Below are positions 22,217-46,934 of a DNA stretch of 64,000 bases, in pieces. The DNA is from Psilocybe cubensis (taxonomy: Eukaryota): the NCBI GenBank assembly GCA_017499595.2, contig CM039009.1, forward strand, positions 1,984,001 to 2,048,000. The letters are read 5' to 3'. Below the pieces are notes generated by a model that was not told where the DNA came from, searched no databases, and worked only from the letters and a program-made list of their open reading frames with translations. The translations under genes were made by a program, and so were the position numbers. How positions within the stretch are numbered: position 1 is the stretch's first letter; the number at the start of each line of letters is the position of its first letter.

Positions 22217-24432
<2,216 letters not shown>

Positions 24433-26992: not shown

Positions 26993-28660
26993 TCACAGCA
27001 TCGCGAGCCCTCTCTCCAAGTCGTCCTCGGCTGTAGTGAGCCATGCATATTCCCAATCGCCTACAATCATTTCTCCTAACTTTTCCAGCTTTTCAAGTCC
27101 AACCTCCTCTCCTTTTTGAACTTCCAAGAACTCCGGGGCATTAAATTCGTACAATAGGCCATGCGTCCTTGATGCTGAGTGTACAAAATTAGCAAACGGC
27201 CTCCGTATGGCGTCGTAGATATTCGTCAGCCTAGACAATGGCACCTGGGTTTGAACAGCTTTAGATATGAGGTGTGCAAGAATGTAAGAATCCTAGGTGA
27301 AATCAGCATAAGTTCGAAATTCGGATCTTAGCGTAATTTACTTCAATAGCTTGACCGGCACCATTCCCCTGATGAGGTGTCATTGCATGAGCCTAATAGT
27401 TGCGAAAGCCTAGTTAAAGTTTAATTGGACTGCATGGAGGCGGAGCACATACGGCATCACCGAGGAGAAGCACATTACCATATGTGTATGATCGTAGTGG
27501 CTGGATGGCATGGATAGCCCATCTCGATGGCTTAGACATGTGCTAGACAAGGGGAGGTCATGGAAAAAATAAATATCCTCAAAAATCGCAAACTAACCTT
27601 CACTAGGCAACGTACTTCCTCTTCCCAGCTGTCAAAAAATGGAACCACCTCCTCATTTTTTGCATCCTGAAACGACGGTCCATCATATTGAGTGCCTTCT
27701 TTCTCCATATCGCATACATACGCAGCGATATTGATGACACTGCCCTGGAGTATAGGATACGCCACAATATGCTGAAGAGTATCCAGGAGACAAAATTTTG
27801 GTTAGAATTGCATTCGCTTACCTGGTTTTTTCCACAGTACTGCCTTGACGGTGTTAATGTTTGTGCAGGAAGACGAGTCGCTACTTACGATCGTTGGGAT
27901 GTTTAGTGCGCGATGTTCGGGTAATTCAGCAGCAATCAGGTGGCTAGGGATCATCGATCGATACGCAAAGCTTCCGCTCCACACAGGGTCAGAGGTGGTT
28001 TGAGAGAAAGGCTCATTTTCCCTGACGAACTGCTTCCGCACCACGGATTTGAGTCCGTCAGCACCTACGAGGAGGTCGCAGTAGGCGGTCGTTCCATCTT
28101 CAAACGATAACTGGATTTCATTTGAAAGAACACTATAGCATCGAAGCCGCTTGGATAGATTGCACTGAATAGAAGGCGATAAGTTTTTTAACAGTACCTC
28201 CTGGACGACCGCACGATGGAATGACAGCGCGGCTCCTGCAAAAACAAGGTCTCGAATAGGTGTCCCATTGGGTTGGTCAGCTTTCCGGAAGTGAAACCCT
28301 AATCCTGTAATTGAGAGTTACTAGTAAGCTAGTAACATTTTTAATGAGAAAATGAACACCGACGTGGAGTTCCATCTGGAATGTGCTGGCCAGGAGACAG
28401 TTGACCTGCAAGCACGGAATCTACACCAAGTTTCTCTAAAATCTTCCAGGCGCGTGGCCAGAACGTTATTCCTGCACCAATTTGCGTCAATTCAGGTGCT
28501 GATTCATATATGTTGACTTGGATATGATCCTGGAGATTGAGTCGACTCAGAGCTACGGCCAAGGTCAGACCGCCAATTCCTCCACCTCTGTCTCCAATGT
28601 AAGCACATATTTCGACAAAATTCAAGGACTCGCCTACATAATTCCAATGCGCAATGGCAT
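26993..28660 (-). CDS. FAD-dependent monooxygenase (salicylate hydroxylase-like); multi-exon
   Basis: MPLRIGII|GGGIGGLTLA Rossmann motif; YESAPELTQIGAGI; DLLVGADGLKS; LLGDA|AHAMTPHQGNGAGQAIE|D. Confidence 0.92.
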
Positions 28661-29139
28661 CTTGAAGCTGTCAGAGTTTACAGATAAGAGGTTATCTATC
28701 CACACCCTCATGGATACTCCGCGCTGTAGTTCGAAAATGGCATCCTTTTCCTGACTGTGTGAACCCAGGGTAGGTGGTGAGAAACAGACCTTAACAATCT
28801 AAATTTTATCAAGGCCTAGCTCCAAGCTCAGTTGAGCCAAATAATGTAGGTCTGCCAGAGGTTGCGCCGAACATTGAAAATGAAATAGGCTTTGTAGGTT
28901 TGTAGCTTTGTACGGGGTCCCGGCTGGGTTTCTTGCTGTAGATCAGTTAATTCGAGCTCCGATTTAACTTCCCGTGACGGCGTGACCTGCGGTTTTTTTC
29001 CCGCTTTCTCCCGACTCCTTGAATGCGTTTCACTTTATCAACCAAACCAACTTTGTCAATATCATACTATTTACTTTCAAGATCCACTCCAATTTCAGAT
29101 ACTTTGAATCATCGTTGCTTCACAGTTGAAAGCTTGTGT

Positions 29140-29166
29140 CACTGCGGGGATTGGCATATATAGTCG
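29140..29166 (+). repeat. Left terminal inverted repeat (CACTG...)
   Basis: Reverse complement of 45016-45042 with 2 mismatches. Confidence 0.93.
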
Positions 29167-29599
29167 ATAATAAAATCGTCTCTTATATTGCGACTAAATT
29201 TTAAATATAATTGTTGTTCTGGATTAGATCAGAAATAGGAAAGATTTTTCAAAGATATTTTGCTGTTTATGTCACCCCGTCAAACCTCGACTACCTATTC
29301 AACAGTAGGCATAGTTTACATCTCGGACGGATTTTGAAATTCTGCCATGGCTTAATTCAGACATATCAGATTAGCACGTTTCCATATCTTATTTATTTTC
29401 TGCACCTGGCATAACCGCGAGGGATATCGAATATGACATAATCTCTCTGACTGTGGTTCTATTTGACCCATGTATTGTACAAACACTGTGACACCATCGT
29501 GAAAGTAAACTAAGCAGTGAAAACGGATTGTGTGATGAATGAAATTTGGGAAGGACACTCTACTCCAGCGGATCGCGCCTCCAAGGTAGCTCGTACGTA

Positions 29600-30347
29600 T
29601 CTGAAATATACATGGTAGGTAAACTTGTATCTGTGCACAATTTAAAAGTAAATAACTTACATAGAAATGGCCTTTTGGGTAAATAACCGGCCAACAGGAC
29701 GTGAAAGGATGCGAGTTCGACGTCCCAGAGAGAATATTATGAGCTCTCCGTGCCAGGGCGCATGAGGACAAATCTCATGTAAATTGAGATTTTGAGGAAG
29801 GGTGCTGTCATAGTAACCCATTATAAGGAAACGATGACGATCGACCGTGACAATGGTGGATGCCGTGGGGATGCAATTAGGATTTACAAGCACTCCGGCT
29901 ATGTCAATCTGAGGAGTTTCGGTGAAACTGCCAGAGTCCGTGGCTGCGAGTCGACATTGGAGCAGCATTGGATTTGCCGTTGTTAAAGAATAAAGCAGCC
30001 CTTTCCTGTACTTCTGTTGCAGGATCGTACTTTAGTTCTAGGTCTTCACTGGCTATAAAGTGGAAAACATACCTTGTCTCGTAATCTTTGGCTCCTGATT
30101 ACATGCACAACTCGTTCTGTGCTATGAGTTGGTAACTCGACAATCTCGGTCTCGTGGCGCGTAAGCTAGATAGAACTTGTGGTCAGAATTCTTGTAGTAA
30201 TCAAAGCATAACATGATGCTCACCATATTGATTTTGGGGATGCTGATGAGTAGGGGTGACTGAGGAACTTGGCTTTCAAGTTCGCGCAACTTTAAGTACC
30301 TCATCATCCTACTGCGCCATTTCAAAGTTGGATTCGAATGTGTCCAT
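29600..30347 (-). CDS. Small hypothetical passenger gene; exon structure and ends uncertain
   Basis: Exon-like segments ...VVHVIRSQRLRDK|GTATGT and ...RSCNRSTGKGLLYS...FLIMGYYDSTLPQNLNLHEICPHAPWHGELIIFSLG (ORF 29657-29968). Confidence 0.45.
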
Positions 30348-30749
30348 CGAGCTTCTTCTGGTCAGCCTAAACAGGGGATTATCTTTGAAAAGTATCGATA
30401 TCGACTTTTGAAATATATTCTACTGTTCAGCTCCTTACCTCTGATGCTTCCTTGACGAATAATCTTTGAAAAATAGCCGGCTGTTTTGGCCGGCTAGAAA
30501 TGTGGCAAATATTTCAAAAATAGCTGTCGCACAAAGAGCCAAGTGATCTTGGCACCAGATCAGACGATGTGAGTTCCGTTTTTTGTACATGATGCAGGCC
30601 GTACTCTGTAGGAATGCTTTGAAAGAATAATTTTTGACCAAATTTGAGGCTCGGGATTCTATCTTTATAATGATCGACGCCAAAGACAAGTGTTGAGTGT
30701 AGGCCCCATCCTCTAGTCGTCACTTTTACTCAACTTTCTCAAGCCAGAA

Positions 30750-32587
30750 ATGACGCCTTCCCGGATATTTTACGGGAATTCCCACGTACATCGACAGGCA
30801 ATTATCACTCTGCATGGCAAAGAAGCTGCTCACACTCTGAAGCTCTCGCACAGTGGTCGATTTCTTGCAGTCGGTAACGATGAGGGCCTCCTTGAAGTAT
30901 GTGAAAGGTCATTAATTTATTCTAGGTGTTTAGTGTGCTTAATAACTCCTAGATTTACATGCTCCATGACTCAGTTTGGAGAAGATTCGGCATTTACGAA
31001 AGCGGTACATCTATTCGCGCCCTTGCATGGCACCCATCGGAGGACTTGACTATTTTTTGTGGATCTGCCAATGGGTCTTTACATAGGATCACTATGCAAT
31101 TGGATGGGGTTAGTTTTACTTCTTTGTGTGCACTTTTCGCCTCACTGACTCTAATGCACCCCTTTCAGAGCTATGTTACATCTAGCGCTATTATACCAGG
31201 CTATATACACTCGCTGCAGCTGAGTCCAGACGGATCAAGGCTTGCAATTGGTCATGGGCGATCTGTTTCCATCGTAAAAGACCCGTTCATGGGTGAGTCA
31301 TTACAAGCACATCTCATTACTGATGTCATGGTCTGATGGGCGTAATAGAGCCAAATGAGCTGGGGGAAATGGCTAGACTGAACGTGTCATTGTCTCCCAA
31401 CGTTCAGAGTCTTTCCGAATATAAATTCTCACGCGGAATATTTTTTGCCTCAAGCCGGATAGTAATCATCCCTTTCCTTGGTACAGGAGGAATAACGTGT
31501 GTCATACTTCTTCATCTATCATTTCTGGACAACGCTAATTCGTCAATTATAGAGCATACAGCCTTAATGACTATTCCAGCAAGTGGTCCATTCAACTACG
31601 AGATAACACCTTGTAAGTGATATTGCAATTCCTTTGTAACTTGTTTGTTATAACAACTATGGTCTACAGTCTGGGCTCCGCTGCAATCTCACCGTCCGGA
31701 GAACGAGTTGCCGTTATGAACATGTGTGACGGTATAGACTTCTATTCAACCACCCATCGACGTCTTTTGTCGACTACGCGCTATGTCTTATCTAGCCGAA
31801 CTCCCCCAAGAAATCTGATAGTCGATATCATCTTTGTTGACGAAGATACTGTTGCCGTTGGCCATTCTGATGGCTATGTTGCTTTTGCGACATTTGGCGT
31901 TAGCGAGATATGCGGGACCTTTGCGCTCGATGACAACAATTACCGAGGTATGTCAAAGAGTTTTCAAAGAGAGCATTACATTCTGATTATGTTACCCAGC
32001 TCCAGTACAAGCCATAACATTTGGTCTTGTCAATCACCAGCCTCACATCTTCGCCGTTATACCCGCATTTAGTCCATGGATGCGCACACACGGTGCCATT
32101 GCCAATACTATCCACGTTGGACTCATACAAAACAACGACGAATCCGGTATTGGAGAAATTGATAGCACATTGGTATGCATAATCAGTTTGTTCTAATGTT
32201 CAATTAATTTTAACCACGGTGATACAGGATGATCAATACCCTTCAACTAGGACACGTCCGCTCACTATGTATAGTGCTAATACTTTCCACTTCACCACTA
32301 TGCAAGTAGCAATGTTGTTGCTTGTTACAATTTCTTCAACATTGTATGGGAAATATTTGCTCAGCACGGAGTCCCACTTGCCTCCGCCACATCTACAGGT
32401 CGCCGCAGTGACTGAACATCCCACCAATTCCGCATCAGAAACTTCGGTGAATCCATCTTCCCAGCCCCTTTTCTTGGAGGGATCACCAACCTCTCCTGCG
32501 CATCCCTTCTATGCATTCACATTAACCGGGATGGTCACTGGGTCTGCTTCAATTGCATTACCTACTGTAGGGAGTAATAGCGCGTGA
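30750..32587 (+). CDS. WD40-like beta-propeller protein with a C-terminal transmembrane segment (passenger gene); multi-exon
   Basis: Repeated blades LKLSHSGRFLAVGNDEGLLE, IRALAWHP...FCGSANGSL, IHSLQLSPDGSRLAIGHG, AAISPSGERVAV and IIFVDEDTVAVGHSDGYV; late hydrophobic stretch VAMLLLVTISSTLYG. Confidence 0.8.
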
Positions 32588-32738
32588 TGGTATTTCTCCA
32601 TACATAGATTACTCATTGACTTGTACATAATAAACATCCGAGTCCATATGCAATGCGTTAAATTGTTTTTTTTTCTCTATGGGAATATATTTGGTTATAA
32701 GTAATTGTCGCAGGAAGGCAGCTTTAACACGTTTTCCT

Positions 32739-34620
32739 ATGGCAACATTTCCTGAAATCATCGAGGAATTTTTATCTCGAGTCTTGCTACTCCCTCTTGA
32801 TGCTAGCAGGGAGGAAGTCAATATTGCACTCGCCAACTGCCTTCATTATGAGCAGCAAATTCGTCGTTGGTTTGCTCAGCACAGGAATCACCCCATTCTT
32901 ACCGAAGATCCCTATCTGGGCTTGATTAATATATTCCAGGTTCCCGACGCAGTTTTACGTTCCCGCCCTCGCTCAGACACAGAGAATATGCACATTTTGA
33001 CTTTTCCAGACAATAGCTACGAAGAATTTCCAGGATCCCATCTCCTACCTCTTCAGTCTGGACTTGTCAGGCCCCGGGGTAACCGTGCCATTGTTCCTAG
33101 TATTGAGGCCTTTCTGAACAATTTTCATATCTTCTCTCATGGCGCTCTGTCAAGGCTCCCAAGCTGGGAAAATATTGTTGTTGCTGGAGGATCTGTGTTG
33201 GGTTGTCTATCACCTCCTGTTAATGCGTCTAGCTCAAACATGGAGCTCAACGACTTGTACCAGTCGCCTGCATACTGGGACTCCGATATTGACTTATTCA
33301 TTTTTGGACTGTCTCACCAAGAGGTCAACTACGCTTTACCATCCTCCGGCGTACACTTACTGACATCTCATTATCTCGTAGGCCCTTCAGAAGATGGAGA
33401 ATATATACAATTCAATTCAAGAAACAATCCCTTTTCATACAATTTGCGTGCGCAGGGCAAATACCATTACAATCTATAGTGCGACAACTACTAATTTTTC
33501 CGATGTGTTTTTAAAGATGCTCACCATATTTTTCTTAGCAACATGGCCTGTAAGGCCAATCCAAATTATAATGCGACTGTATATGTCACCGTCTGAGATT
33601 CTTGCTGGGTTTGACATCGACTGCTCATGTTGCTTGTTTGATGGTACGAATTTCTTGACACAAATTGGTACATTTATTTTATTAACTGTGCTATTAGGTC
33701 AAAGTGTCTACGTAAATCCTCGGGCGCTTGCGGCGTTGATCTGTCAGTCAAACTTGATAGATATATCACGAAGATCACCTTCCTATGAAGTTCGCTTTGT
33801 GAAGTATTCTGAACGGGGATTTGAGGTCCACTATCCCGAATTAAATCGTCATAATATTGCTTACCAGAAAGTACGTCCAAATCTTTTTGTCTAACTGGAT
33901 ACATAATGACATCTATACAAAGCTTTATGACATCGACTTACAGGAGTATCCACAAGGCCTTTCATTTCTGATTGTCGGCGAGATGGAGCACAAGCGTCCC
34001 CACTACTACAATAATCTTTCTCAGTGGAAGGGTCGAGTTCCAAAGGCAAGACGTCTGTATGCACCTGAGAACATCGGGACTGCAAATTTGAAGGAGCTTA
34101 TATTCTCCAATAATTATGAGTATATTCGCATTCCCCATCGCCCAGGAGTAAATTCTAGAATAATTGAAAAATGGGTAAAGAGATTTGTGAGTTCCATCCA
34201 CATTTTTTCACCCAAATCTCATTGACTTTGTTAGGACGAGAGGGCAAATTCAAAGTATAACTTGGTAAACCTCAACCGAAACTTGCACAGGCATGCCGCT
34301 TTCGCTGGTACAATGGCAGAGTGTCTAGAAAATTTCTGCATGGTAAGTATTTCTTTATTCTCTCGTCATGGGGTCTAATGCCATACTGCGCTAGAATTGT
34401 CCTTCTCCTCAGAGCGCTGAAGAAGAAGCTTTAGTGACGGCTGAACCAATGTATATTCGGGGACCAGCCAGGTGAGTGCTACAACTCCGGTATAATTGCT
34501 CAACATGTGTCCTAACCTTTGAGCGTCAGATTCATTGAGTCGGACCCGGGCCGTCAGATGATTGGAAGTTTCAATCCAATCACCATTGATAATTGGACAG
34601 AAGGGGCCTATAGGAGTTAG
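32739..34620 (+). CDS. Nucleotidyltransferase-fold protein (Pol-beta superfamily-like), stand-alone form (passenger gene); multi-exon
   Basis: NIVVAGGSVLGCL...DSDIDLFIFG (hG[GS]...DxD); IQIIMRLY...SEILAGFDIDC; RRSPSYEVRFVKYSERGF; ends DPGRQMIGSFNPITIDNWTEGAYRS* with TAG at 34618-34620. Confidence 0.75.
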
Positions 34621-35640
34621 ATATGACGCCTTCAATCATGTAGATGATAACATTATGGTTAAAATCTCAGTGGGAAGTTGGGAATTGAATTAGCATTTGA
34701 TCATAAGGAGAATATTGCAGCACGTTGGCTCACCTATCTTATCAGTCATTGCAATTAGAGCCGGACTCGGACCGTACATTAGCACATGCTCTAGGATACA
34801 TATTCACATTGTACTCTTAAGACCGGCCATGGATTTGAACCAGGTTTAAGAAGCTTTACAAGCCTATCTCAGACCTGCTTGGTACTCTTGGGTAGATACA
34901 ATTGTATGAGAATGGCTAAGGATATCCCGGGCATGAATAAGCGTCAACTCGGGCATTAAATCCTCGTGTGCATATTGGTCCATAGGTGAGAAGCTGGGAT
35001 GACGGTAATACAATGCGTGTGGTCCTGATTTGCATTGCTGCGGCCCTTCTGTCTGCGCTCAAAGTCCAAAAAATCAAAACGCGCATGAACTGCATAGATA
35101 ATAAGCCCTAAAAGGTCTTGCTTCGGCTGTTTAGAAGCCTAATGACTGTTCTGGGCCTGAACACGCACACAAACCCTTGTGGGAAAACTTACATGACCGT
35201 GGTACTTTGTTAGTTCAGATGAACACGGTTTGTGGTGACAATGATGCACCACTGCGACACTAGATAGGGCTCTAGTGAAAGATTTAAGGAAAGTAAAATT
35301 TGTGAATACTTTCTATGTTTAACAGAGGCATTGATATTTTGAAAACCGTGATGTGTACTTGGTGGAGTGCAGTACTAGTGGGCGGAAAATATAGGGCACA
35401 TTAATTCTACATATCCCATAAGTTATCTGAACGTGGTAATTATAATGTGTTGCTTGACTCGTCAAAACCTCATGTTATATCTCCATCTTGGGCCATGACT
35501 TTGAGAAATAGGAAAACATGAGGCAGAGTTGGAAGAACGCTGATTATATTCTACAAAGTAAGCAAAGCATCCCAAAGACATAAAAGGCGTCCATTTTCCA
35601 GCCTAATACTCCTCAGCTCCTCTTCCCAACTCAAAGAGCG

Positions 35641-37523
35641 ATGTCATTCAGAAGCTTCTACTCCACCAGTCGCAGTCACCCAATGTCTGCAACTGCAAGC
35701 TACAAAGGTGCGTAGTTCTGTGTAAAGCACATTGGAATCAAATAACTGACCTTATGTTAAAGGATTTTCTGACAGCAGTCCACCAACGTCGCTCTCTGCC
35801 TCTGTTACTGCATCTGTTTGTAGTAGCGAGAGTTTCCAAACGGCCCAGCAGAGCGCATTCTCTCCTCAGTTTGCCGAGTCTTTCATTCGCGGTTTTGATT
35901 TGAATCGCACTGACACGGGGAGCGAATCATCCTTTGGAACTCACACTGGTTCCCTGGAGAATTTTTCTCCTGTTTCTGCTCCACACAACAACGACGTAAA
36001 AGGTTCTATGATGGTCGTAAGCCAAACTGTCTTATGCACAAAATTTGTTAAGTTTTTCTAACAACCTTCGTTAGGCTTGTGATGAAACGTCTGACAACAG
36101 TCCCCAAGATGAAGAGGTAAGTCTGTTACTTGTTGACACTATACATACTCTGATTAGCAAACAAAATTTGGTTGTATTCTTAGATGCATGATGAACTCAG
36201 TTCTGACTCTGCAGAGGAGACGGAAGATGAAGACTATATTGCCTCGGATGACGAGGCTCAAATGGTAAGTGAATGGTTGAAATTTTTTTGTCATATTAAT
36301 GTTTTTATTGTAGATTGTAACGGACTCGACCAATGTTCGACTCACACGTTTAGAAGCTAACATCACTGCCGTCTTAGCAGCAATCCAGTCACTCACAGCA
36401 GCAGCAGCAGCGTCGGCTCAGGGGCCTACTACTACCCCAACCTCTCGTCTTGGAGTTATCTCAACTCGACCACTTGGTCCAAATAGGCGCCCAGCAGACC
36501 GAACTGCTCTCATGGTGAGAAGTATTTTATTATAATATCCGGAATACTCGGTCTCACTGTTCTGTCTATAGCGCCAAGTCAGAGCAGAGCTCAGCCGACT
36601 GCTCGGTGATGATTTTCTGAGCTTCGAGAATGTCTTGACTCGTGACGAGCTCGATGTTTTTGGATCTATCTGGAAGTCTTCTACAGCTGAGCCACGTCCA
36701 TCTTGCTGTGACGTCGACAATTTTAAGGTCGACCTCATTGGTTCTCCCCGAAGTGATTGGAACCAATCAGCTTCACGAGTTTTTGCCAAGCACTTTGTTA
36801 CCACGTCGGCGTATAGTCACAGCTATTTCCCTCTGGTCCAGAATTATTTTTACCAGAGGATGAAGTCTCTTCAGGCAGCTTTTCGGAGGAAGAATGCGGA
36901 CGATGCTGCTCGACAGGCCGAAACCACTGCTAAGCGCCGCTGGCAAAGAAAACAAAATGTATGTATTAAATTTAATGTATGTTCCATTATTACATTTACT
37001 TATTCAATGTTTTAGCTCTTCCACAAGCGTCTTGGGATTGCCCAGGAGCACCCCCTCCTACAAGAGCATGTACCCATTCTACAACGTCTTGGTATTGCAG
37101 GGATGAGCTCAGACGAGAGCGATTTTGAGGATGGCCCGGCAAGCACTGCCACAGGGGGTGCTCCAAGATACAAAGTGCATCCCCCTGCCTGGCGTGCCTC
37201 TGCCCTCTCCTACTGGCTGCAGACAATTGATTCGCTCCAGGTTCTTTTTAGGAGATCCAATGGTAAGCATCGCGGCTCATTTCCTCGCCTCCGCGTTGCA
37301 TCTGGAGAAGACAGCGACAGCAAGGGCTTTGTCACTGACTTACCCATCACGGCATACAACCCAAACTGGCTTGCCGCTAGGCCATTTTATATGTTTGATG
37401 TTCGCCCGACCGATGAGAACTACAACTTCAATCACGACAACCGACTCTTTGCGTGAGTCAAACATATTTCTTCATTATACTGTGGCACTAACTACATTTT
37501 TCAATAGATATTTCCAAGTCTAA
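35641..37523 (+). CDS. Hypothetical multi-exon protein (transposon accessory ORF)
   Basis: ATG at 35641 and a series of GT-AG introns. Conserved-looking C-terminal block WNQSASRVFAKHF...KRRWQRKQN|LFHKR...LGIAGMSSDESD...PAWRAS...LPITAYNPNWL. Confidence 0.65.
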
Positions 37524-38528
37524 TGTTGTAGCCACCATCCTCAAATTAATCAGGGCTTGTCCTCCCTACCGTGTTAGCACAGGTTCCGAAAGAGGGTAGG
37601 AGTGCCCCGACATTCTTGATACGAAATCTTTTTTTTGTATGTTCCCTGCCATTCAAAATGGTCCGAAAGAGGGAAAAAGTTTTGATAATGTACATATACT
37701 TGACAACAATGATTCTACAATTCTATATCTTTGATTTCAATACTTCTTGAATTGAATTTTGGCACAATAATAAGTGTTGGAAGTCCCAAAACATACCACT
37801 TAGACAATTGGACACCAATCACATATGCTGATCACAATATATGTTGACACCTCAAAATAGTTAATCTGCCACCAACGTATGAGGGGATCAAAACACGCAG
37901 GCGTATTGTTTCTGCGCCACCACTAGCATAGGAAGCCTCTTCAGCGGCAACGGTAATGCACATGCGCACTCAACCATTTTTTGTTGATTCATGCGTCTGT
38001 CAGTCACATGATTCAAGAATGGCACAAGTGGTCTAGACTCTAGGTTGGTCTAGAACGCATTACCTAAGAGTAACACGTACGCACGGGCCATAGTTGACCG
38101 CATTAACATTATAGTCCAGGTAGAGTGTAACAGAGAGGGTTAGAAGTGCATTAAGCCACAAGCCAGGTTACCAGACATTGACAAAGTAATAAGTAGCAAA
38201 GAGAGTCAGCAGTTGTAGCAATTTTGAAGCAGTAGAATACAAAGGTGTAACCATATTGCCAACATGTCACCCAATCGGCCAATGTTCAGTGCTTCTATGC
38301 GTTGGAAAACAGCACTGTAGGTCATGAGATGTAACTTATCAAGTGGTTTTACTCAAATACTTCCACCGAATTCTTATAAATCATATCTGACAATGCGGGC
38401 CATATCACCGAGCTAACTCGTTACTCTTCTGAATCTTGGCATCCGAAGCAAAGATATCAATTGTCGCATTGCGATACAGTTATTAGCAACACATTTTTTT
38501 GCCTCTCTGTACCTTGGTTCACCTAGAC

Positions 38529-40555
38529 ATGCAATCCGTAATCCAGGACCTTGATCCAAACAGTGACTCCAGCCCGCCGCTCAACACTCAAAGGCTTCCC
38601 AACTATGATAAGCCACCATTCGTTCAGATTGAACATTTTCCGGACATTGATGTACGTATACCATATTCATCAACACAAATATGCTATCTCACTCTTGATC
38701 ATAGCTTCTTACTCACGATTTTGGGGAGCTAAACATGACAAGGTCGGTTGTTATCGATTAAAATATGATCTTTTATTCACTATAAGTATGCGCATACAAG
38801 GCCCCCCTATAACTCTCATGAGCAGAGGGAGTTCTCTGTCTCTGCAGCGCACAGTCGCTACCACTCTGAATCCAATATACCAGAGCGTCAACGCAGTCCG
38901 GACCGTGAAGGAATCCAGGTGTCTTCCCATGTTATTGCGCAACGGTCACAACAGGATTGGACTGAAGAAATTACGCGTGAGCTCAGACGCATCTCAGGCT
39001 CTAGTGGACATTCAGGGCAGCGCACCGGTCACAATCACTCTGGATCTGTTGCTAATCCAGTTGAACGGCGGGAAAGTGGTCCCCAGGAGCCTTTCAATCG
39101 TGGCCGCCGCGAAATGTCACTCCCCTTCACGCCAGCGCCATATCGAGCCGGCATTGAGGAGAAGAAATCTGAAGTTCGACGGGTGATTGCTTACTACTTT
39201 CACTCGTCTGCCGTTTCCCCCCAGAACGTTCATCAAGTAGTCAGTGTTATAACTGGCAGTACAGACGACTATGGAGCGTTGCTCTCCCAGCTCAATATCC
39301 TTGGTCCACCTACCAGGTATGAAGACATTGGCGAGGTCTATAACCGTCTACATTACATTGTATTTGGAGAAGAGAGAAACACGAATCCTCCGTAAGTTTT
39401 CTCATTTCATGTATATCAAAAAAATCAATTGATCATGTAAATCTATTGTATAGAAACTCTCTTTCGTACACCCCTGTCAGTGCTCACAACACCAGTCGTA
39501 GATTTATTATCGACAATGACCCGGGATCTATTTCTGCACCGAATACCCCGAGAGCACAACAGCGCAGTCCTACATCAGTTAGAGAACCTGCTGCGCTTGC
39601 TGCCCCAATTGCCGTGTATCCACTAAATCCGCCTACTTCTCGATCAACTCCTAGTCCTCCCATCCAGTCACGGATCGATGTTGGAGTGGGAAGTTTGCCT
39701 GCACGTCCTGTGTCTCAGAATATCAGAGAATCTTCAGCCACTTCAGGATTGCGTACCGCGCCAATTCTTTCCCCCACTTCACAAAATCAACAGTCTACAC
39801 CTCCCCATTCTTCGTTGGACCGGATGCTTTCCCACGCATCTAACTTGCCGCTCCCGCCTGTTTCTCCGGCGTCTGTACCCTTGGCAGCATCATCCTTTTC
39901 TGAGGGAACACCACGCCAGTCTGTTGCCCGTCATGCCACTCCACAGAGTCAAGTCAGTCCTCCACATTCTTTGGCACCCAATTCAAGTGCTTCCTTATCA
40001 TCTGCTACTACCTCACTCTCAACTGCAACATCCACTAATAATACTTCGGCATATTTTACCGCGCTATCTGCCAAGGTGTTTCACACAGAGATGGAAGGTA
40101 TAGACGGCCCAATCGATTTTACCTATACCATATCATGCTCGACAGGGCCTCTTGATAATCCACCCGTAGCAGCATTAGAAGAACCGCCTCAATCTGGCGA
40201 CCTTCTCTTCAATCAGTTCCCACATGCCGCACAGTCACTCAGGCAAGCACAAGTGTGGATGTACGTCGACGGTGTTTCTCCTAATGAGCAAGGAGTTTGG
40301 GTAAACATTTCATCTAACTACGGATCATTTGCGGGACAACCAATCCCACACCCTAGGGTCCCGAGTCGTTGCCTAAGTGTCTATCCTGGGAAGGAGGGAC
40401 GACCACGTTGGATAAAGGAGGAGACATGGAGTTCTAATCAGAAGAAATATTTGGCAGAAGCGGATAAGAAGAAACGATTAGATATAGGCCGTGCATCGCT
40501 GACTCCTGCGCCTTCTGCATCTCCATCTAGTGTTGCCAGAAGATCAAGTGACTGA
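38529..40555 (+). CDS. Hypothetical Ser/Pro-rich protein with a small globular C-terminal domain (transposon accessory ORF)
   Basis: Spliced ORFs 38499, 38919 and 39446-40555; C-terminal GDLLF...QVWMY...WV...HPRVPSRCL...PRWIKEETW. Confidence 0.6.
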
Positions 40556-40682
40556 CTAATACACAGATTACTCCAAACTCGTAGTAGCGGGAACAATAGC
40601 AGTAGGAACATGCTTGATACATTACTTTTGTACTGTCGCTTCAATGTCACTTCTTTTATTTCATACTCCTTTTCCTCTCACC

Positions 40683-43600
40683 ATGATAAGGCGTGGACGT
40701 GGCGGCCGGTCACGGCCTGTAATAGTAAACTGCAGATGCAAATCGCACTGCACAACGTTCAATGCCGCTACTGGACTCTATGAGGGAGATGGTATACTTC
40801 AGACACGTCCTACACGCGACAATCACATGAAAGACGATAGACTCCTGATAGCACTTTCTAATCACGCACCACAGCCAGTACATGTTCCTGACGGCAGCAC
40901 AGATGGCTCACCGTTTCAAGAGGTCTTTGATGAAATAGATATCATAATGTCCCAGTCACTGTCTGATGCTCTGCGCCCGTTTGACTTTGTAAACAAACCA
41001 GAAGACAATGGCCAATTTGTTTGGCCCAATGACGACGAAATTCTACTTCCAAATCATGGGCTATACTCGTTGAAAAACAGCCTTGTCAACAGAACATACT
41101 TACTTGCTGCGCATCGTCTTCGAGAAATCTACAACTGGGCAACAAATCCATTCATCCAGCACTCTGATGACATTACACCTTTATTGGATTGTATTATGGA
41201 GAAAATGGGAGAACTTGTACGGATGAAAGAAGTTCAGTGGTCTCAGCAGCGAGGAAATAGCCGCGTAGATGGTCCATACGTCAATACAGGTATGAAATCC
41301 CTTGTTCAAAAAGAATTATATTGTGCTGATTATAATACTGGCTTATATCGCAGATATATATTTCACACCTCTGCCTTCATTGAATCCGAGACAGAGGGTT
41401 GCTGTCTATATTTCCCTCGTCATGGAAAATATGTTTTTTGTACCGCGGCGAGCATTACGAACTTTATTGGCAGGCGCTCGATCTCTATTACGCTCTAACA
41501 ATGCATCCGAGACTGTTGTGGAAGAGATACCGGCGGATCCGCAGTCAGGAGCACATAGAGCACGCTTGAACCCTGAAACACGCCAATTTGTTGTTTGCCC
41601 AACCTGCCACAAACTATACCCATTCAAACCCGGTGATAGTCCTCTCAACGACAGTAATCCATTCATTTCAATTTGTATGCAGCGCCGCACCCCCGAGTCC
41701 AATGAGTGTAACACGCCTCTTTGGAAAGAAAAAACTACAAGCCGTGGGACCTCGTACCTAGTCCCAATTCGGAAGTACGTCCACCAGGATTTGAAGCATT
41801 GGGTCGGACGTCTACTCTCTAGAAAGGGGATGGAAGAACTTATTGACAAACAGAATGTGGATCTCAGCAGCACCTCCCCCACCTCACCCGTTAATGACAT
41901 TTGGTCAGCAAGTATTGTTAAAAATCTAGAAGATGGTTCTGGAAACAAGTTCATTCCCGGTAATAATGGCGAGGGGAGGCTATTATTTAGCCTATCGGTC
42001 GATAGCTTCAACCCATTCCACAATAAAACCGCCAAACAAAGTATATCATCGACTGGTATTTGGATGGTTTTACTCAACCTCCCGGCACATCTTCGATATC
42101 TCCACGAAAACATGTATGTTGCAGGTGTTATCCCCGGCCCAGATAAACCATCGAAGGAAGACATATATCCGTACGTTGAACTGGTTATGGAAGATCTTTT
42201 GGATTTTTGGTACCAGGGTGTTCGATTTTCGCGGACCGAGAGTAGCCTATTCAGCCGACTTTACAAAGCTATGCTCATTCCTCTGATTTGTGACATGCTG
42301 GCTGCACGCCAGATGGCTGGCCTGGGCGCTACAACATCTCATTATTTCTGCACCTTTTGCGAAATTGATCTTGACGATATAGACATTACAGATCGAGCAG
42401 AATGGCCGTCCAAGGATTTGCAACATATTCAGCATGTTGCTAACCTTTGGAAGAATGCGGCCAGTGAAAAGGAGCAGCAAACTATTTTCGAATCATATGG
42501 CATACGGTGGTCGCCTCTTCATACGCTTCCATATTGGGATGTTATCCGTTTTACTGTCATTGATCCTATGCACGCGCTTGACCTCAATTTATTCCAAAAT
42601 CATTGTCGCTCAGTCTTTCAAATTAACACAGGCGCTCAGGGTGGGGATGGTATTGGACCCTCACTTCCTCATGAGCGACATTTTACATCCAAAGATCACC
42701 TTCAGCATTTGCGACAGTGCCGGGAGCTCATCCGGTCTAACGACGATGACCTAATGACAAAGCTTCTTTTGCATCCGCGCCCTGTTCTGTATCAGATCTG
42801 CGTTGAAAATGACATCATTGGAGAAGGTCACCGGCGCATCATCGGGACAAAATGGATACTTGTTAATAACATATTGGCTTGGGTGAGTACTCATAACTAT
42901 TGTATTTTGGACAATGTGGATTCTCATTACGGTTATATTTTTATACAGAGGAACAGTCCAAATTATGTAGATGTCAGCACTTCCCCAGTTTCTCTGGATG
43001 ATGACCCATCCAACGATGAATTGGCTATATCACAAACTCCTATTCTTCCTTTGGATAGTGGCCTTGATCGTGCGCTTATCATTCGAATCTTACGACATCT
43101 CTTTGCTAGCGAAGATGTTGAGGCATCTCATTCTCGGGCATATGGCCAAGGGTCGGTTGCTGCATTTCTGTACATCTGTAATCTTGTGCACATATCCACC
43201 AGTGATGTCGATACAAGAAGGAAAACCGCAAAGCGGCGTTTATTTGACAAGATAATTGGAGAAGTAAGCATATATTTGATGCAGTTTCGTTTAACCTGTA
43301 AAATTAACACGCTCTTGCTATGCAGATAGAGCGAAATACGGGGGCGTCTCAAGAGCTGCAAATGTATATCCCCACTGTAGACGATTCTGCACGTCCTGTA
43401 CTCGGAATCGATGTCATGGAAGAAATTTGGTCTGAGATGACACGTACTCAACTTCCAACATGGATTACCCCCGCACCTCCCGACTGGGGTACATTCAGAC
43501 GGGGGAAACTTAGCGCTGACAACTGGCGAGTAATTTGCTCAATTCACTTGCCTATTACGCTTATTCGGCTCTGGGCAAATGGAACTGAGCGTAAACGGAG

Positions 43601-44735
43601 AATGCTTTCACATTTCATGGATCTCGTCTCTGCCGTTCGAATTGCAAATATGCGTGTTACATCTGAACTTCAAATCCAGGAATACAACCGTTATATGACT
43701 CGCTATGTGTCCAGGCTGAGGTCCCTTTATCCCGACCAAGCATTGAAACCAACACATCATGCCGCTCTTCATATAGGCGATATGTTGGGACTATTTGGTC
43801 CAAACCACTCTCATAGCGGCCCTCATTATGAGCGATATATTAATTTCTTCCATCGTGTAAATACCAATATGAAAGTTGGTACGTAGGGCCTCTACACATA
43901 TTCTACCATCAAAGCTGATCAACACTTTTCTAGGCGAATTAGAATCTACTCTACTTTACACATCTGCCCGGAGTGCAAACATTCGGGCTGCGCTTTCTGA
44001 CAATACTTCTCTGCGGAAATCAGTCATTGAACTTGTAAATGTCATGGACAATATCGACCAAGAGGACATTCGAGGATTTCGTTTGGCAACAATCCTTGAT
44101 CCTGACTCGCCAACATATACCCAGCGAAGCAAGTCTGATGTCGCTCCATTAGGGCAAGCGTATCATACTCAGCTCTGCGAACTTTTGGGTAGAGCTACTC
44201 ATACAATGCCAAGGGACGTAACATTTGTGAAAGAAATATCTCGCAAAGGAGTTTGCTACGGTGTTTCAGGAGCAACAACCTTCAAAAATAGTTCTATCAC
44301 ATTCCGATCTGACGATCCTCAGGACGCTGCTTCGTATGCCGGAATAACGACTCACATTTTTCACTATCGGTATCCCATATCCGAGAACCAATATGCCGAC
44401 GGCCACTTTCTCATTCTGCGAGAACTTGTTCCGATTGATACAACCATATTTGACCCTTACAAAAGCTTTACCTTTGGAGGATATCTTTGTAGGGAAACGG
44501 CGCAGACCCGAGTGATTAAACTCTCACAAGTTATATCACACTGTGCATTGACAAATCTTGTCACTGATCCCTTTAGAGGTTTATTTCACGTACTACCATT
44601 GGACAGGGTAAGCTGTTATTACCGCTTCACTGTTTGTCTCTACTGAGCGATGTTTCAAAGCTAATGCTGGAGTTTGATTCAATGGGTCTCAGCAGCCACG
44701 CGGAGGAAGCGAGTGATCAGGCCGCCGACCAATGA
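40683..44735 (+). CDS. CACTA/En-Spm Tnp2-family (Transposase_21-like) DDE transposase; ~6 exons
   Basis: CPTC; LLFSLSVDSFNPF; LLNLP..LRY..ENMYVAGVIPGP; LICDMLAARQMAG; FCTFC; IDPMH; KLSADNWR; KPTHHAALH...FGP...YERYI. Confidence 0.93.
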
Positions 44736-45015
44736 ATGTGCGCCGGTCACCCCGAACGACTTTTTCCGGAGTAGATTATTCATATTAATTATTATTTATG
44801 AGACGTACATGACATGTGGTCTGCGACCTGCCGGTGAAGAATGATGAAATATAATTGTTCTTTCGGCTTCGAATTCTTCTCAATTAATAAGCACAAAATA
44901 CTGTACAATCACAACAGCAGCATATTTTTCAAAGGGAAAGCTAGATATACGCATGTGATTAAATAACTAAATACTTTACATATGGAATCGGACATGAAAT
45001 CGACGAAGACGGGCC

Positions 45016-45042
45016 CGACTATATATGCCAAACCCCCCAGTG
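45016..45042 (-). repeat. Right terminal inverted repeat (...CAGTG)
   Basis: Complementary to 29140-29166; followed by TSD TGT. Confidence 0.93.
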
Positions 45043-45464
45043 TGTATAGCTTTCAATGTATTCCCAATCCCTTAAATTTTTGCAAATCAGATCCCCAGGC
45101 GACGATAGCACCAATGGTGTGTATGGAGGAAAGAACGTTGTATGACAATCCACTTATATGATGTGAATGCTACTAAGTCAAGGAATATTTAGTTGATATA
45201 CTCTCTTCCAATCATACTGTTAACAAAGGTTGTTTCGACATCAACAAGCAAGCTCAACCGAAGTTGCTCTTTATAGATAACTTCGCAGCTCACTGGTAAT
45301 TTTAGGAGTGCTGTGTCTTGTGGCTCCTTTCTGATAAGAGGTTCTAACCATGCGTTTTATTAACCGAGAAGCCTTGATTGTGGCCTTTGCTGACATAGAA
45401 GAAGAATGGGATTCAATATAATAATTGAACCTATCGTTTATTCCTTCCCTCCACAGAACCGAGA

Positions 45465-46538: not shown

Positions 46539-46934
46539 GCTGTGACGGGCAGTCAATATAATTGCGTCGAGTTTTCTATGCACCTTTTACGGTTAAGTGG
46601 AGTGATTCCTCGGTCGTCTCATTGTTCTTTTCCGAATTTTACCTGCAACTCATTCTGATTCCCGTGGTTTCTCGTTCTTAACGTCTGAGGGAAGTGAACC
46701 TTTTGTGCTGATTACCGTTATCTCAATCTGTCCTAATATGGGTGACATTGGGCGCCCCATTTTTCCCGGGCCTTTTGATATCATGAAAGAGATCCAAGTT
46801 GGCTTCGCTCATCATCGGTAGTTTATTCACTTGATCAAAATCCATCTAAGCGTGCGCCTTCCGGTGTATATAAAGAGAGTCCTGATTTTGCTGTCTTCTT
46901 AGCCGTCAGCTTACACCCATCATTCGCCAATACC

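What the first reader, a model, noticed from the sequence alone, without database searches (positions are those of the whole stretch)
32739..34620. Transposon-borne stand-alone nucleotidyltransferase-fold gene
Seen in the sequence: an intact AGGS...DxD signature (VAGGSV, SDIDLF), a later FDID motif, and a stop shortly after GSFNPI...WTEGAY. From memory, this domain type occurs in large fungal ankyrin-repeat proteins and in giant-virus proteins; here no ankyrin repeats follow. Inference: an uncharacterised NTase carried by a DNA transposon could modify RNA ends (counter-silencing), act as a toxin or addiction factor, or make a nucleotide signal.
Basis: partly seen in the sequence, partly recalled or inferred. 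Interest (0 to 1): 0.72.

Follow-up and report, generated by a model that had tools for sequence, protein, structure and literature searches.

The report
Transposon-carried Gad2-like nucleotidyltransferase gene
A recently mobile mushroom DNA transposon carries an intact gene for an enzyme related to a phage protein that disarms bacterial immunity, so fungal jumping genes may carry their own counter-defence enzymes, though its function is untested.

Summary
Window 32739-34620 (+) is an intact 8-exon gene of 499 codons with seven GT..AG introns. All the quoted motifs are present and no ankyrin repeats follow.

The protein belongs to the family Pfam calls Gad2 (PF26128). A profile-profile comparison links it to phage SPbetaL7 Gad2 (95.6% probability, E 1.3e-8). 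A 44%-identical homologue folds like class-II CCA-adding and poly(A) polymerase-type nucleotidyltransferases (best Z 9.1).

"Transposon-borne" is shown. The gene lies inside a 15,903-bp EnSpm/CACTA element (29140-45042) with 27-nt inverted ends (CACTG...), a 3-bp target duplication and a full-length Transposase_21 gene. Other strains of the same labelled organism carry the empty site. One strain has the element at a different locus with its own 3-bp duplication.

Stand-alone relatives form a fast-evolving, multi-copy group in at least seven agaric genera, and they keep the catalytic residues.

Function is untested. I favour an element-serving, counter-defence-type enzyme. Against this, there are no expression data, and the only other copy seen differs by 10 non-synonymous against 2 synonymous changes plus a lost splice donor. 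Those differences are mostly CpG transitions.

The parts
29137..29139 (.). left copy of the 3-bp target-site duplication (TGT)
   Evidence: The same TGT follows the element at 45043-45045. The empty-site joint 29134>45041 skips 15,906 nt, which equals the 15,903-nt element plus 3.
29140..29166 (+). left terminal inverted repeat, 27 nt, starting CACTG
   Evidence: 25 of 27 positions match the reverse complement of 45016-45042. The 16-nt core occurs only at these two places in the window; 0.03 are expected by chance. A strain-X7 contig that starts to fit exactly at 29140 has unrelated DNA before it.
30717..32072 (+). ORFs of a possible WD40-like passenger gene inside the element; function unknown
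   Evidence: Open frames. One weak WD40 hit, E 5.7e-5 at 23.9 bits, below the Pfam cut-off of 27. Not studied further.
32739..33323 (+). NTase gene exon 1: N-terminal region, AGGS motif and DxD motif
   Evidence: 63% identical to P. cubensis P0001 at E 9.9e-79.
33382..33478 (+). NTase gene exon 2
33539..33643 (+). NTase gene exon 3 (QII..RLY..SPSEILAGFDID)
33698..33870 (+). NTase gene exon 4 (PRA, RRSPSYE, KYSERGFEV)
33923..34186 (+). NTase gene exon 5. An alternative acceptor at 33943/33944 is also in frame.
   Evidence: tblastn blocks.
34235..34342 (+). NTase gene exon 6 (LHRH..C-rich stretch)
34395..34471 (+). NTase gene exon 7. An alternative acceptor at 34412/34413 is also in frame.
34530..34620 (+). 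NTase gene exon 8 (DPGRQ..GSFNPI..WTEGAY) with stop codon TAG at 34618-34620
36184..37456 (+). ORFs of an unknown gene inside the element
   Evidence: Open frames. No Pfam family for 36572-37015 or 37016-37456.
38542..40555 (+). Ser/Pro-rich ORFs of unknown function inside the element
   Evidence: Open frames. No Pfam family for 39344-40555.
40716..44619 (+). transposase gene (Transposase_21 / tnp2 family), apparently full length
   Evidence: PF02992 at E 1.6e-11 on ORF 41296-43329. Four co-linear tblastn blocks cover residues 12-1238 of the 1247-aa Galerina homologue P0194.
45016..45042 (-). right terminal inverted repeat, 27 nt, ending CAGTG
   Evidence: A strain-X7 contig fits up to 45043 and then continues into unrelated DNA.
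45043..45045 (.). right copy of the 3-bp target-site duplication (TGT)

Best explanation
Shown: 32739-34620 is an intact, spliced gene for a 499-aa stand-alone protein of the Gad2 family (Pfam PF26128). Its core has the Pol-beta-type nucleotidyltransferase (NTase) fold and is closest in shape to class-II CCA-adding/poly(A) polymerase enzymes. The gene is cargo of an apparently autonomous 15.9-kb EnSpm/CACTA DNA transposon (29140-45042) that has moved recently within the species.

Inferred: the protein is a catalytically active NTase that the element keeps because it helps the element. The most likely chemistry is transfer of a nucleotide from an NTP onto a 3'-OH of RNA, or onto another hydroxyl acceptor. 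The most likely benefit is blunting of host genome defence (small-RNA or methylation-linked silencing). This would parallel phage Gad2, which disarms the bacterial Gabija system, and the TET/JBP dioxygenases carried by other fungal DNA transposons.

The identity and cargo steps deserve about 0.9 confidence. The confidence given here is for the whole statement, including the inferred function.
For: Gene and motifs.

Family:
- 35 of 37 homologues carry precomputed PF26128, which the ESM Atlas labels Gad2.
- My own profile-profile test compared 183 eukaryotic modules (window as master) with 8 phage sequences (SPbetaL7 Gad2 as master). Result: probability 95.6%, E 1.3e-8, window residues 130-344 aligned to Gad2 12-206, with AGGS, DxD, QhI, FDhx and KY in register.
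- Shared PHROG matches: Gad2 hits phrog_4400 at 7.9e-27 and phrog_1614 'nucleotidyltransferase' at 8.2e-6; family member P0037 hits phrog_1614 at 1.1e-5 and phrog_4400 at 4.8e-4.

Fold:
- AlphaFold2 model of P0003: pTM 0.73, core pLDDT mostly above 85.
- VIA-align: the first 9 rows are all NTases. 3wfo_A scores Z 9.1 (rmsd 3.7, 181 residues), followed by Z 7.4, 7.1, 6.8, 6.8, 6.1, 6.0, 4.9 and 4.7. The next, unrelated rows score 3.7 or less.
- Foldseek ranks 1-13 are all CCA-adding, A-adding or 'bacterial protein' 3aqk-3aqm entries, with probabilities 0.77-0.97.

Constraint:
- The window protein keeps 55 of the 61 columns that are at least 90% conserved in 168 rows outside its own group. These include G150, D183, D185, D253, D255, R271, RRSPSYE, K298 and Y299.
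- In the 14 closest stand-alone rows, D185, D253 and D255 are kept in 14 of 14 and D183 in 12 of 14.

Mobility:
- The joint 29134>45041 is present in one X7 contig, one X10 contig and 19 X13 raw reads.
- X10 has no depth in 23 of 23 inner bins.
- X7 has the element flanked by other DNA, with TTA on both sides.
- X13 depth inside is about 16 against about 33 in the flanks.
- TIR and TSD. Transposase.

Precedents: fungal DNA transposons carry TET/JBP enzymes proposed to counter methylation silencing (PMC12730594, abstract and passages). Gad2 is needed for phage SPbetaL7 to escape Gabija (preprint 10.1101/2023.05.01.538930, passages).
Against: - No expression data exist. No RNA holder was listed, and the one run guessed to be RNA covers only the flanks.
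- The only other copy I could compare (strains X7/X13) differs in the coding sequence by 10 non-synonymous and 2 synonymous changes and has lost the intron-6 donor (G>A at 34343). So there is no sign of constraint between copies. That count rests on the 40 of 158 differences that the tool listed.
- Physical linkage of the NTase with this transposase family is shown only for this element. In Gymnopilus, Agrocybe and Candolleomyces the locus tags of NTase and transposase homologues are not adjacent.
- The element is about single-copy, so it is not a proliferating family here.
- A third catalytic carboxylate was not identified.
- The fold was predicted for a homologue, not for the window's own spliced protein.
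- Gad2's mechanism is unknown (PMC12904381, passages), so the analogy carries no mechanistic detail.
- The closest relative, P0001, lacks the core exons in its gene model.
Confidence: 0.4

Rival explanations
1. Neutral passenger. The module was captured from, or shares an origin with, the host's long ankyrin-repeat gene. It hitch-hikes inside the transposon without helping it, and copies decay once the element is methylated.
For: - Between the two copies seen there are 10 non-synonymous and 2 synonymous differences plus a lost splice donor. Exons differ at 12 of 1500 positions, a rate similar to introns at 4 of 382.
- 24 of the 37 listed differences inside the element are CpG transitions.
- P0001 lacks the core exons.
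- One Gymnopilus member is flagged 'LOW QUALITY PROTEIN'.
- 2 of the 14 closest rows have lost D183.
- CACTA-type elements are known to pick up host gene pieces (recalled, not checked here).
Against: - The window copy keeps 55 of 61 family-wide conserved columns.
- The stand-alone group spans at least 7 genera at roughly 35-47% identity with open frames and catalytic residues kept. Neutral drift to that distance would not leave this.
- All eight exons and seven splice sites are intact here.
Confidence: 0.3
2. A transposition helper. The NTase acts on the element's own nucleic acids or on the broken donor and target ends during cut-and-paste, for example by adding nucleotides at ends, rather than acting against host defence.
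For: - The gene lies within an element that has an intact transposase.
- The nearest folds are template-independent 3'-end nucleotide-adding enzymes.
- Many conserved Arg/Lys residues suggest a polyanionic substrate.
Against: - The closest transposase relatives in other species are not visibly paired with the NTase.
- EnSpm/CACTA elements in general do not need such an enzyme (established knowledge, recalled).
- Family members in phages, giant viruses and host ankyrin proteins have no link to transposition.
Confidence: 0.1
3. A toxin, addiction factor or nucleotide-signal synthase. The enzyme would modify a host target harmfully or make a signalling nucleotide.
For: - SPbetaL7 Gad2 was toxic when expressed alone in bacteria (preprint passages).
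- There are weak structural matches to CD-NTases: CdnC at Foldseek probability 0.60 and CdnE at Z 2.8.
Against: - The CD-NTase matches are far weaker than the CCA/poly(A) polymerase-type matches.
- No partner antidote or receptor gene was recognised in the element.
- The conserved single-copy host ankyrin form argues against a generally toxic activity.
Confidence: 0.08
4. An ordinary host gene that merely happens to lie between two inverted repeats, not part of a mobile unit.
For: The 41-nt inverted repeat first detected includes 9 nt of palindromic host target on each side, not element sequence.
Against: - The whole 15.9-kb block, gene included, is absent at this site in X10 and X7.
- In X7 it is present between different flanks at exactly the same ends, with a new 3-bp duplication.
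Confidence: 0.03

Closest known systems
Phage Gad2 (Gabija anti-defence 2; Bacillus phage SPbetaL7, OQ921347 109563-110765), founder of Pfam PF26128
   Same: Homologous NTase head/neck. hhalign gives 95.6% probability and E 1.3e-8 over 183 columns, with AGG[SA], DxD, QhI, FDhx and KY in the same order. Both are carried by a mobile genetic parasite, and in neither is the mechanism known.
   Different: - About 15% identity; Gad2 is 400 aa with an unrelated C-terminal half.
- Gad2 has FDFT where the eukaryotic proteins have FDID.
- The host is bacterial and the target, Gabija, has no known fungal counterpart.
- The window gene has 7 introns and sits in a eukaryotic DNA transposon.
N-terminal module of the roughly 1,800-aa fungal 'ankyrin repeat protein' (e.g. 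Agrocybe chaxingu P0007, Mycena galopus P0009, Paracoccidioides lutzii P0184)
   Same: The same roughly 500-aa module from the N-terminus to GSFxPI..W, at about 32-41% identity. 55 of 61 conserved columns are shared.
   Different: - The window protein stops where the ankyrin repeats would begin.
- End branches in the stand-alone group are 1.1-1.7 changes per column, against about 0.1-0.6 for basidiomycete long forms.
- The stand-alone form is multi-copy and patchy, not one copy per genome.
- It lies in a transposon.
TET/JBP dioxygenase genes carried by fungal DNA transposons (Kyakuja, Zisupton, EnSpm, Plavaka and others; PMC12730594)
   Same: An enzyme gene carried as cargo beside the transposase in Agaricomycete cut-and-paste elements, including EnSpm with CAC..GTG ends and 3-bp duplications. 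It is proposed, not shown, to counter silencing (abstract and passages).
   Different: A different enzyme class. That paper has 0 occurrences of 'nucleotidyltransferase' or 'ankyrin' in its main text. I did not read its supplements.
Class-II CCA-adding, A-adding and bacterial poly(A) polymerase enzymes (PDB 3wfo, 3h37, 3aql, 1miv, 9kma)
   Same: The best structural matches to the homologue's model: Z 9.1 to 6.1, 157-186 aligned residues. Glycine-rich motif and DxD are on the same elements.
   Different: - No PF01743 hit on the window pieces or on eight homologues.
- 12-15% identity.
- The GGxVRD, RRD and EDxxR motifs are not evident by eye.
- No tRNA-binding body/tail was recognised.
Giant-virus (Nucleocytoviricota) homologues fused to ankyrin, BTB, VWFA or RING domains
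   Same: The same module by structure. The Fadolivirus ankyrin protein scores E 9.9e-32, and there are 82 hits at E <= 0.001.
   Different: These are viral proteins with extra domains. None is known to be in a transposon, and none has been characterised.

Membership tests
Pol-beta-superfamily nucleotidyltransferase fold | Glycine-rich hG[GS] motif before the catalytic strand | tested here: met
   VAGGSV at residues 148-153. A149 and G150 are 91% and 97% conserved in 168 rows.
Pol-beta-superfamily nucleotidyltransferase fold | [DE]h[DE]h pair of metal-binding carboxylates | tested here: met
   SDIDLF at residues 182-187. D183 and D185 are each 99% conserved in 168 rows.
Pol-beta-superfamily nucleotidyltransferase fold | Third catalytic carboxylate on a neighbouring strand | tested here: inconclusive
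   There is no conserved acidic residue in the two strands after the DxD. Candidates elsewhere are E247, D253 and D255.
Pol-beta-superfamily nucleotidyltransferase fold | Three-dimensional similarity to solved NTases | tested here: met
   Tested on homologue P0003 (44% identical), not on the window's own spliced product. Z 9.1/7.4/7.1/6.8/6.8/6.1/6.0 to CCA-adding, A-adding, poly(A) polymerase and TENT5B chains, with unrelated rows at 3.7 or below. Foldseek probabilities reach 0.97, but 0 matches have E <= 0.001; the best is 1.2e-3.
Pol-beta-superfamily nucleotidyltransferase fold | Nucleotidyl-transfer activity | not testable with these tools
   Needs an enzyme assay.
Gad2 family (Pfam PF26128) | Match to the PF26128 model | not testable with these tools
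   The local Pfam copy lacks the model: no hit for the window pieces or for homologues that carry the precomputed label. Precomputed PF26128 is on 35 of 37 homologues. For the window's exon 1, 19 of 30 Atlas feature hits fall in the set labelled PF26128, the best scoring 0.90.
Gad2 family (Pfam PF26128) | Demonstrable homology to the founding phage protein | tested here: met
   Profile-profile comparison gives 95.6% probability and E 1.3e-8. Against the single Gad2 sequence it was not significant: E 0.047 and 0.17, and no hmmsearch hit.
Gad2 family (Pfam PF26128) | Anti-defence function | not testable with these tools
   Shown only for phage members against Gabija (preprint passages).
Class-II CCA-adding / poly(A) polymerase family (Pfam PF01743) | Match to PF01743 and its sequence motifs | tested here: not met
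   No PF01743 hit at E <= 1 on the five window pieces or at E <= 0.01 on eight homologues. The resemblance is in fold only.
EnSpm/CACTA DNA transposon | 3-bp target-site duplication | tested here: met
   TGT on both sides here and TTA on both sides at the second locus in X7. The defining value is taken from PMC12730594 passages.
EnSpm/CACTA DNA transposon | Inverted ends of the form 5'-CAC..GTG-3' | tested here: met
   CACTG...CAGTG, with 25 of 27 positions complementary.
EnSpm/CACTA DNA transposon | Transposase of the tnp2 / Transposase_21 type | tested here: met
   PF02992 at E 1.6e-11 and 44.3 bits, above the cut-off of 28.6. Co-linear with a 1247-aa homologue.
EnSpm/CACTA DNA transposon | Evidence of movement | tested here: met
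   Empty site in X7, X10 and X13, and the element at another locus in X7.
KDZ transposons (Kyakuja, Dileera, Zisupton) | 7-bp (Kyakuja) or 8-bp (Zisupton, Dileera) target-site duplication | tested here: not met
   The duplication is 3 bp. No 8-bp repeat flanks the ends. Values are from PMC12730594 passages.

The most novel reading that the evidence does not exclude
The gene is a eukaryotic transposon's counter-defence enzyme, a functional counterpart of phage Gad2. By nucleotidylating a host silencing component or its RNA guides, it would let the CACTA element escape genome defence. If so, one ancient NTase family would have been recruited repeatedly by phages, giant viruses and eukaryotic transposons for the same purpose, and the host's ankyrin-fused form might belong to the defence side of the same conflict.
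Probability: 0.2. Interest if true: 0.85.

Novelty: new variant of a known kind. Interest (0 to 1): 0.6.

Why it matters
Gad2 is an experimentally validated phage anti-defence enzyme whose mechanism is still unknown. Its eukaryotic relatives (6,929 cluster representatives at E <= 0.001) have no assigned function.

Here one of them sits as intact cargo in a transposon that demonstrably moved within a species. Natural strains exist with the element at this site, at another site, or not at all. That gives a ready genetic contrast for asking what the enzyme does. It also extends the idea that fungal DNA transposons carry enzymes against host silencing, so far argued for TET/JBP, to a second and unrelated enzyme class.

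I found no paper on this:
- 'PF26128' returned 0 papers.
- Gad2-like, Gad2 homolog and Gad2 domain returned only the original preprint and two unrelated papers.
- nucleotidyltransferase + EnSpm + fungi + cargo returned nothing relevant among the 12 papers listed of 41.

The library omits most subscription journals.

Tried and rejected
- **Local Pfam.** The five window pieces gave only sub-threshold noise. The cause is that PF26128 is missing from the local copy.
- **Own genome.** None is held for this window.
- **PDB by sequence.** The profile of alignment A2 was swamped by ankyrin columns. The cleaner A4 profile gave only weak histone H2B hits, which come from the C-terminus of member P0032. 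No NTase was found by sequence.
- **Phage and viral searches from the eukaryotic side.** tblastn of P0005 against phages found no match. The search for related loci failed for A4 because no stretch was conserved enough, and found nothing for P0037 in viral contigs.
- **Single-sequence comparison with Gad2.** Not significant. A profile-profile test superseded it.
- **NCBIfam.** No family.
- **RNA evidence.** No RNA holder was listed. Run X11, guessed to be RNA, covers only the flanks, with spliced joints there. Its strain may lack the element, so it says nothing about expression.
- **Linkage in other species by locus tags.** NTase tags are CVT26_013416, _002347, _011468 and _004616; NLJ89_g6545 and g5876; MD484_g8798. 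Transposase tags are CVT26_010395; NLJ89_g9152, g6446, g9593 and g2648; MD484_g7899, g7039, g8074 and g8588. None are adjacent. The assemblies are fragmented and only top clusters were seen, so this is weak evidence.
- **KDZ classification and an 8-bp duplication.** Rejected.
- **The 41-nt inverted repeat as the transposon end.** It is 9 nt of palindromic host target, then 5 nt that include the duplication, then the 27-nt true end.
- **Origin by capture from a basidiomycete host gene.** FastTree nested the stand-alone group among basidiomycete long forms (SH-like 91). The mixture-model tree of 45 rows did not: the stand-alone group is one side of a branch at SH-aLRT 81, or 93 for 14 rows. The origin is unresolved.
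- **Earlier findings of this scan.** Nothing.
Full report
**The gene.** On the + strand an ATG at 32739 opens a frame carrying VAGGSV and SDIDLF. Reading the sequence for GT..AG introns gives eight exons: 32739-33323, 33382-33478, 33539-33643, 33698-33870, 33923-34186, 34235-34342, 34395-34471 and 34530-34620. Joined by coordinates in a script, they make 1500 nt, 499 codons and one terminal stop, with seven introns of 48-60 nt that all start GT and end AG.

In an alignment with database homologues, the two introns that happen to be in frame stand out as insertions present only in the window row. The exon pieces line up along the whole roughly 500-residue module. Two acceptor sites, for exons 5 and 7, have in-frame alternatives that I could not settle without RNA.

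**The family.** The local Pfam copy finds nothing. Database searches do:
- Exon 1 matches a Psilocybe cubensis protein at E 9.9e-79 and 63% identity.
- The exon 2-4 read-through matches 37 proteins. Of these, 35 carry the precomputed family PF26128. Most are fungal 'ankyrin repeat proteins' of about 1,800 aa with the module at the N-terminus.
- Homologues that carry the label also get no hit locally, so the model is simply absent from the local library.
- The ESM Atlas names PF26128 'Gad2', for Gabija anti-defence 2.
- An exhaustive profile search finds 6,929 cluster representatives at E <= 0.001 and 1,485 at E <= 1e-30, both long and short forms.

**Testing the Gad2 link myself.** I fetched Gad2 from phage SPbetaL7 (OQ921347).
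- Against that single sequence the eukaryotic profiles were not significant: E 0.047 and 0.17, with no hmmsearch hit.
- Gad2 has 164 phage records with relatives. I took seven diverse ones.
- I compared the 183-row eukaryotic alignment (window protein as master) with the 8-row phage alignment. hhalign gave 95.6% probability and E 1.3e-8 over 183 columns. Window residues 130-344 align to Gad2 12-206, with the AGGS, DxD, QII, FDID and KY motifs in register.
- Independently, Gad2 and eukaryotic members hit the same two PHROG profiles.

So the window protein is a true, distant relative of phage Gad2. According to the passages I read, Gad2 is a 400-aa protein predicted by AlphaFold to be a nucleotidyltransferase. 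It is needed by SPbetaL7 to escape Gabija and is toxic when expressed alone (preprint 10.1101/2023.05.01.538930). Its mechanism was still listed as unknown in February 2026 (PMC12904381).

**The fold.** The spliced window protein cannot be handed to the folding tool. I therefore modelled P0003, a stand-alone P. cubensis relative (44% identity over 459 columns), using a 33-row alignment.
- Model quality: pTM 0.73, mean pLDDT 70, core residues 1-330 mostly above 85.
- Foldseek against the PDB gave no match at E <= 0.001 (best 1.2e-3). Ranks 1-13 are nevertheless all CCA-adding or A-adding enzymes, or the 'bacterial protein' entries 3aqk-3aqm, which I recall to be a bacterial poly(A) polymerase. 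Probabilities run from 0.77 to 0.97.
- The Foldseek-independent search of 48,161 chains put nine NTases first. 3wfo_A scored Z 9.1 (rmsd 3.7, 181 residues), then Z 7.4, 7.1, 6.8, 6.8, 6.1, 6.0 (TENT5B), 4.9 and 4.7. Unrelated helical proteins followed at 3.7 or below.
- Against viral models there were 82 hits at E <= 0.001. They are led by giant-virus proteins fused to ankyrin, BTB, VWFA or RING domains.

The NTase fold is therefore supported and is nearest in shape to class-II CCA/poly(A) polymerase enzymes. There is no sequence match to their Pfam family, and I could not identify a third catalytic carboxylate.

**Conservation.** In 168 rows outside the window's own group, 61 columns are at least 90% conserved. 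The window protein has the consensus residue at 55 of them. These include G150, D183, D185, E247, D253, D255, R271, N281, D284, the RRSPSYE stretch, R295, K298, Y299 and R302. Among the 14 closest stand-alone rows, D185, D253 and D255 are kept in 14 of 14 and D183 in 12 of 14.

**The transposon.** A repeat scan found a 41-nt inverted pair at 29126-29166 and 45016-45056 (E 1.5e-5). Its 16-nt core is unique to these two places in the window. No 8-bp duplication flanks it.

Laying public runs of the same labelled organism on 27500-47000 settled the matter:
- One X7 contig, one X10 contig and 19 X13 raw reads join 29134 directly to 45041, skipping 15,906 nt.
- X10 has no depth in any of the 23 inner bins.
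- In X7 the contig with the empty site has the same depth as the flanks (40.7), while element contigs have about half (17-25).
- X7 element contigs start to fit exactly at 29140 after unrelated letters ending ..TTA. They stop fitting at 45043 before unrelated letters beginning TA.., which with the matching T at 45043 again gives TTA.

So in X7 the same element sits at another locus with its own 3-bp duplication, and this locus is empty there. The element is 29140-45042 (15,903 nt). Its ends are 27 nt with 25 complementary positions (CACTG...CAGTG), flanked here by TGT. In X13, depth inside is about 16 against about 33 outside, consistent with one copy in one of two nuclei.

The element holds a Transposase_21 ORF (E 1.6e-11). 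That gene is co-linear with residues 12-1238 of a 1247-aa Galerina homologue. Three-base duplications and CAC..GTG ends define EnSpm/CACTA. Kyakuja makes 7-bp duplications, and Zisupton and Dileera make 8-bp ones (PMC12730594, passages). The NTase gene lies well inside the element, 3.6 kb from the left end, so it moves with it.

**Decay of the other copy.** X7 and X13 share the same differences from the window copy.
- In X7, 90 of 122 differences are C>T or G>A as read from the window.
- Of the 37 differences listed inside the element, 28 are of that kind, 20 of them at CpG. All 4 reverse transitions would restore a CpG in the other copy. This is the signature of methyl-cytosine deamination, and the X7-type copy has taken most of it.
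- Within the NTase gene the 15 listed differences are 10 non-synonymous, 2 synonymous, 3 plain intronic, and G>A at 34343, which destroys the intron-6 donor.
- Only 40 of 158 differences were printed, so these counts are partial.

Between these two copies there is no sign of constraint. The window copy, with CpG observed/expected of 0.83 against 0.87-0.90 in the flanks, looks like the less damaged one.

**Relatives of the stand-alone form.** A FastTree of 183 modules used rows covering at least 300 profile positions. P0008 was dropped as a second model of P0003's gene, and P0001 fell below the coverage bar. The tree puts the window in a 14-row set (support 97), or 15 rows at support 92, made only of stand-alone modules. 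By name these are:
- Psilocybe cubensis (three genes, plus a fourth in the same 90% cluster)
- Gymnopilus dilepis (six modules in four gene models, two of which hold two modules each)
- Galerina marginata
- Hebeloma cylindrosporum
- Crepidotus variabilis
- Agrocybe chaxingu (two)
- Candolleomyces efflorescens

Agrocybe also has the long ankyrin form. A mixture-model tree of 45 rows keeps the group together: SH-aLRT 93 for 14 rows, 81 for all 15. It shows end branches of 1.1-1.7 against about 0.1-0.6 for basidiomycete long forms. It does not nest the group inside the basidiomycete long forms, so where the group came from is open.

The closest relatives of the transposase come from overlapping genera (Gymnopilus and Galerina at 61%, also Agrocybe and Candolleomyces). 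However, locus tags give no adjacency to the NTase genes.

**What it most likely does.**
- Shown: an intact Gad2-family NTase-fold gene travels in a recently mobile EnSpm/CACTA element. The stand-alone lineage has kept its catalytic residues across several genera while evolving fast.
- Inferred: the enzyme is active and serves the element. The nearest folds all add nucleotides to RNA 3' ends without a template, and many Arg/Lys residues are conserved, so RNA tailing is my first guess for the chemistry. The only characterised relative is a viral counter-defence protein, and other fungal DNA transposons carry TET/JBP enzymes thought to oppose methylation silencing. Counter-defence is therefore my first guess for the purpose.

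I give the whole chain 0.4. The main rival (0.3) is a hitch-hiking passenger that decays once the element is methylated. The comparison between copies supports that rival; the conservation across genera argues against it.

**Limits.**
- There is no RNA evidence and no genome of the organism.
- There is no genomic context for relatives.
- The fold was predicted for a homologue, not the window's own protein.
- The table of differences was truncated.
- Contig-based runs can show presence but not prove absence.
- Supplements of PMC12730594 and of the Gad2 preprint were not read.

Noticed in passing
window 29140-45042 against strains X7/X13: Differences between the two copies of the element are dominated by CpG transitions. 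In X7, 90 of 122 are C>T or G>A as read from the window; 24 of the 37 listed are CpG<>TpG/CpA. The element diverges by about 0.4-1.1% against about 0.2-0.4% in the flanks. This looks like methylation-driven decay of one copy.
   Followed up: partly
window 29126-29139 and 45043-45056: The insertion target is itself a palindrome: TTGAAAGCT ... AGCTTTCAA surrounds the 3-bp duplication. That is why the repeat finder reported a 41-nt inverted repeat instead of the 27-nt transposon end.
   Followed up: yes
window 30384-30524 (+) and 44921-44933 (-): The motif TTTGAAAAATAGC occurs three times about 1.3 kb inside the left end and once, inverted, about 110 nt inside the right end. There are 5 matches in the window against 0.29 expected. 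These may be sub-terminal transposase-binding sites.
   Followed up: partly
window 42346-42386, 44654-44686, 44774-44778 (strains X13, X7): Many reads or contigs break at these places with unrelated sequence on the other side. The X7/X13-type copy therefore seems to carry insertions or rearrangements, one of them inside the transposase ORF.
   Followed up: no
window 4794-8158 (+): A second, unrelated DNA transposon gene: Plavaka transposase (E 6e-64) with DUF6830 (E 3.8e-45).
   Followed up: no
window 56110-63656 (-): Four tandem paralogous genes, each made of a large ORF of 260-350 aa followed by one of 160-175 aa ending ..LPLRY.HL.(R/K)LRS.. . No Pfam family was found for the one ORF scanned (60619-61674).
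   Followed up: no
protein P0032 (607 aa, JGI metagenome-derived): A Gad2-family module followed by a C-terminus that matches histone H2B (PDB profile hits at E 0.006-0.4). This is either a real fusion hinting at a chromatin link or a merged gene model.
   Followed up: no
proteins P0002 and P0039 (Gymnopilus dilepis): Each gene model contains two complete copies of the module, so the copies are tandem or the models are merged. This genome has at least six modules.
   Followed up: partly
window 10788-11879 (+): A 363-aa ORF that looks by eye like a retrotransposon integrase core, although Pfam gave no hit at E <= 0.001.
   Followed up: no
window 22561-24272 (-), 48332-48736 (+), 54604-55026 (+): Ordinary host genes beside the element: a family-15 glycoside hydrolase (E 3.6e-30), an ORF with Spt5-type KOW domains, and a Ras-family GTPase exon.
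   Followed up: no
window 27542-28896 and 45299-46524 (run X11): Contigs of a run guessed to be RNA show spliced joints in both flanks. The skipped stretches end CT..AC on the left and GT..AG on the right. So expressed host genes lie within about 250 bp of each end of the insertion.
   Followed up: no
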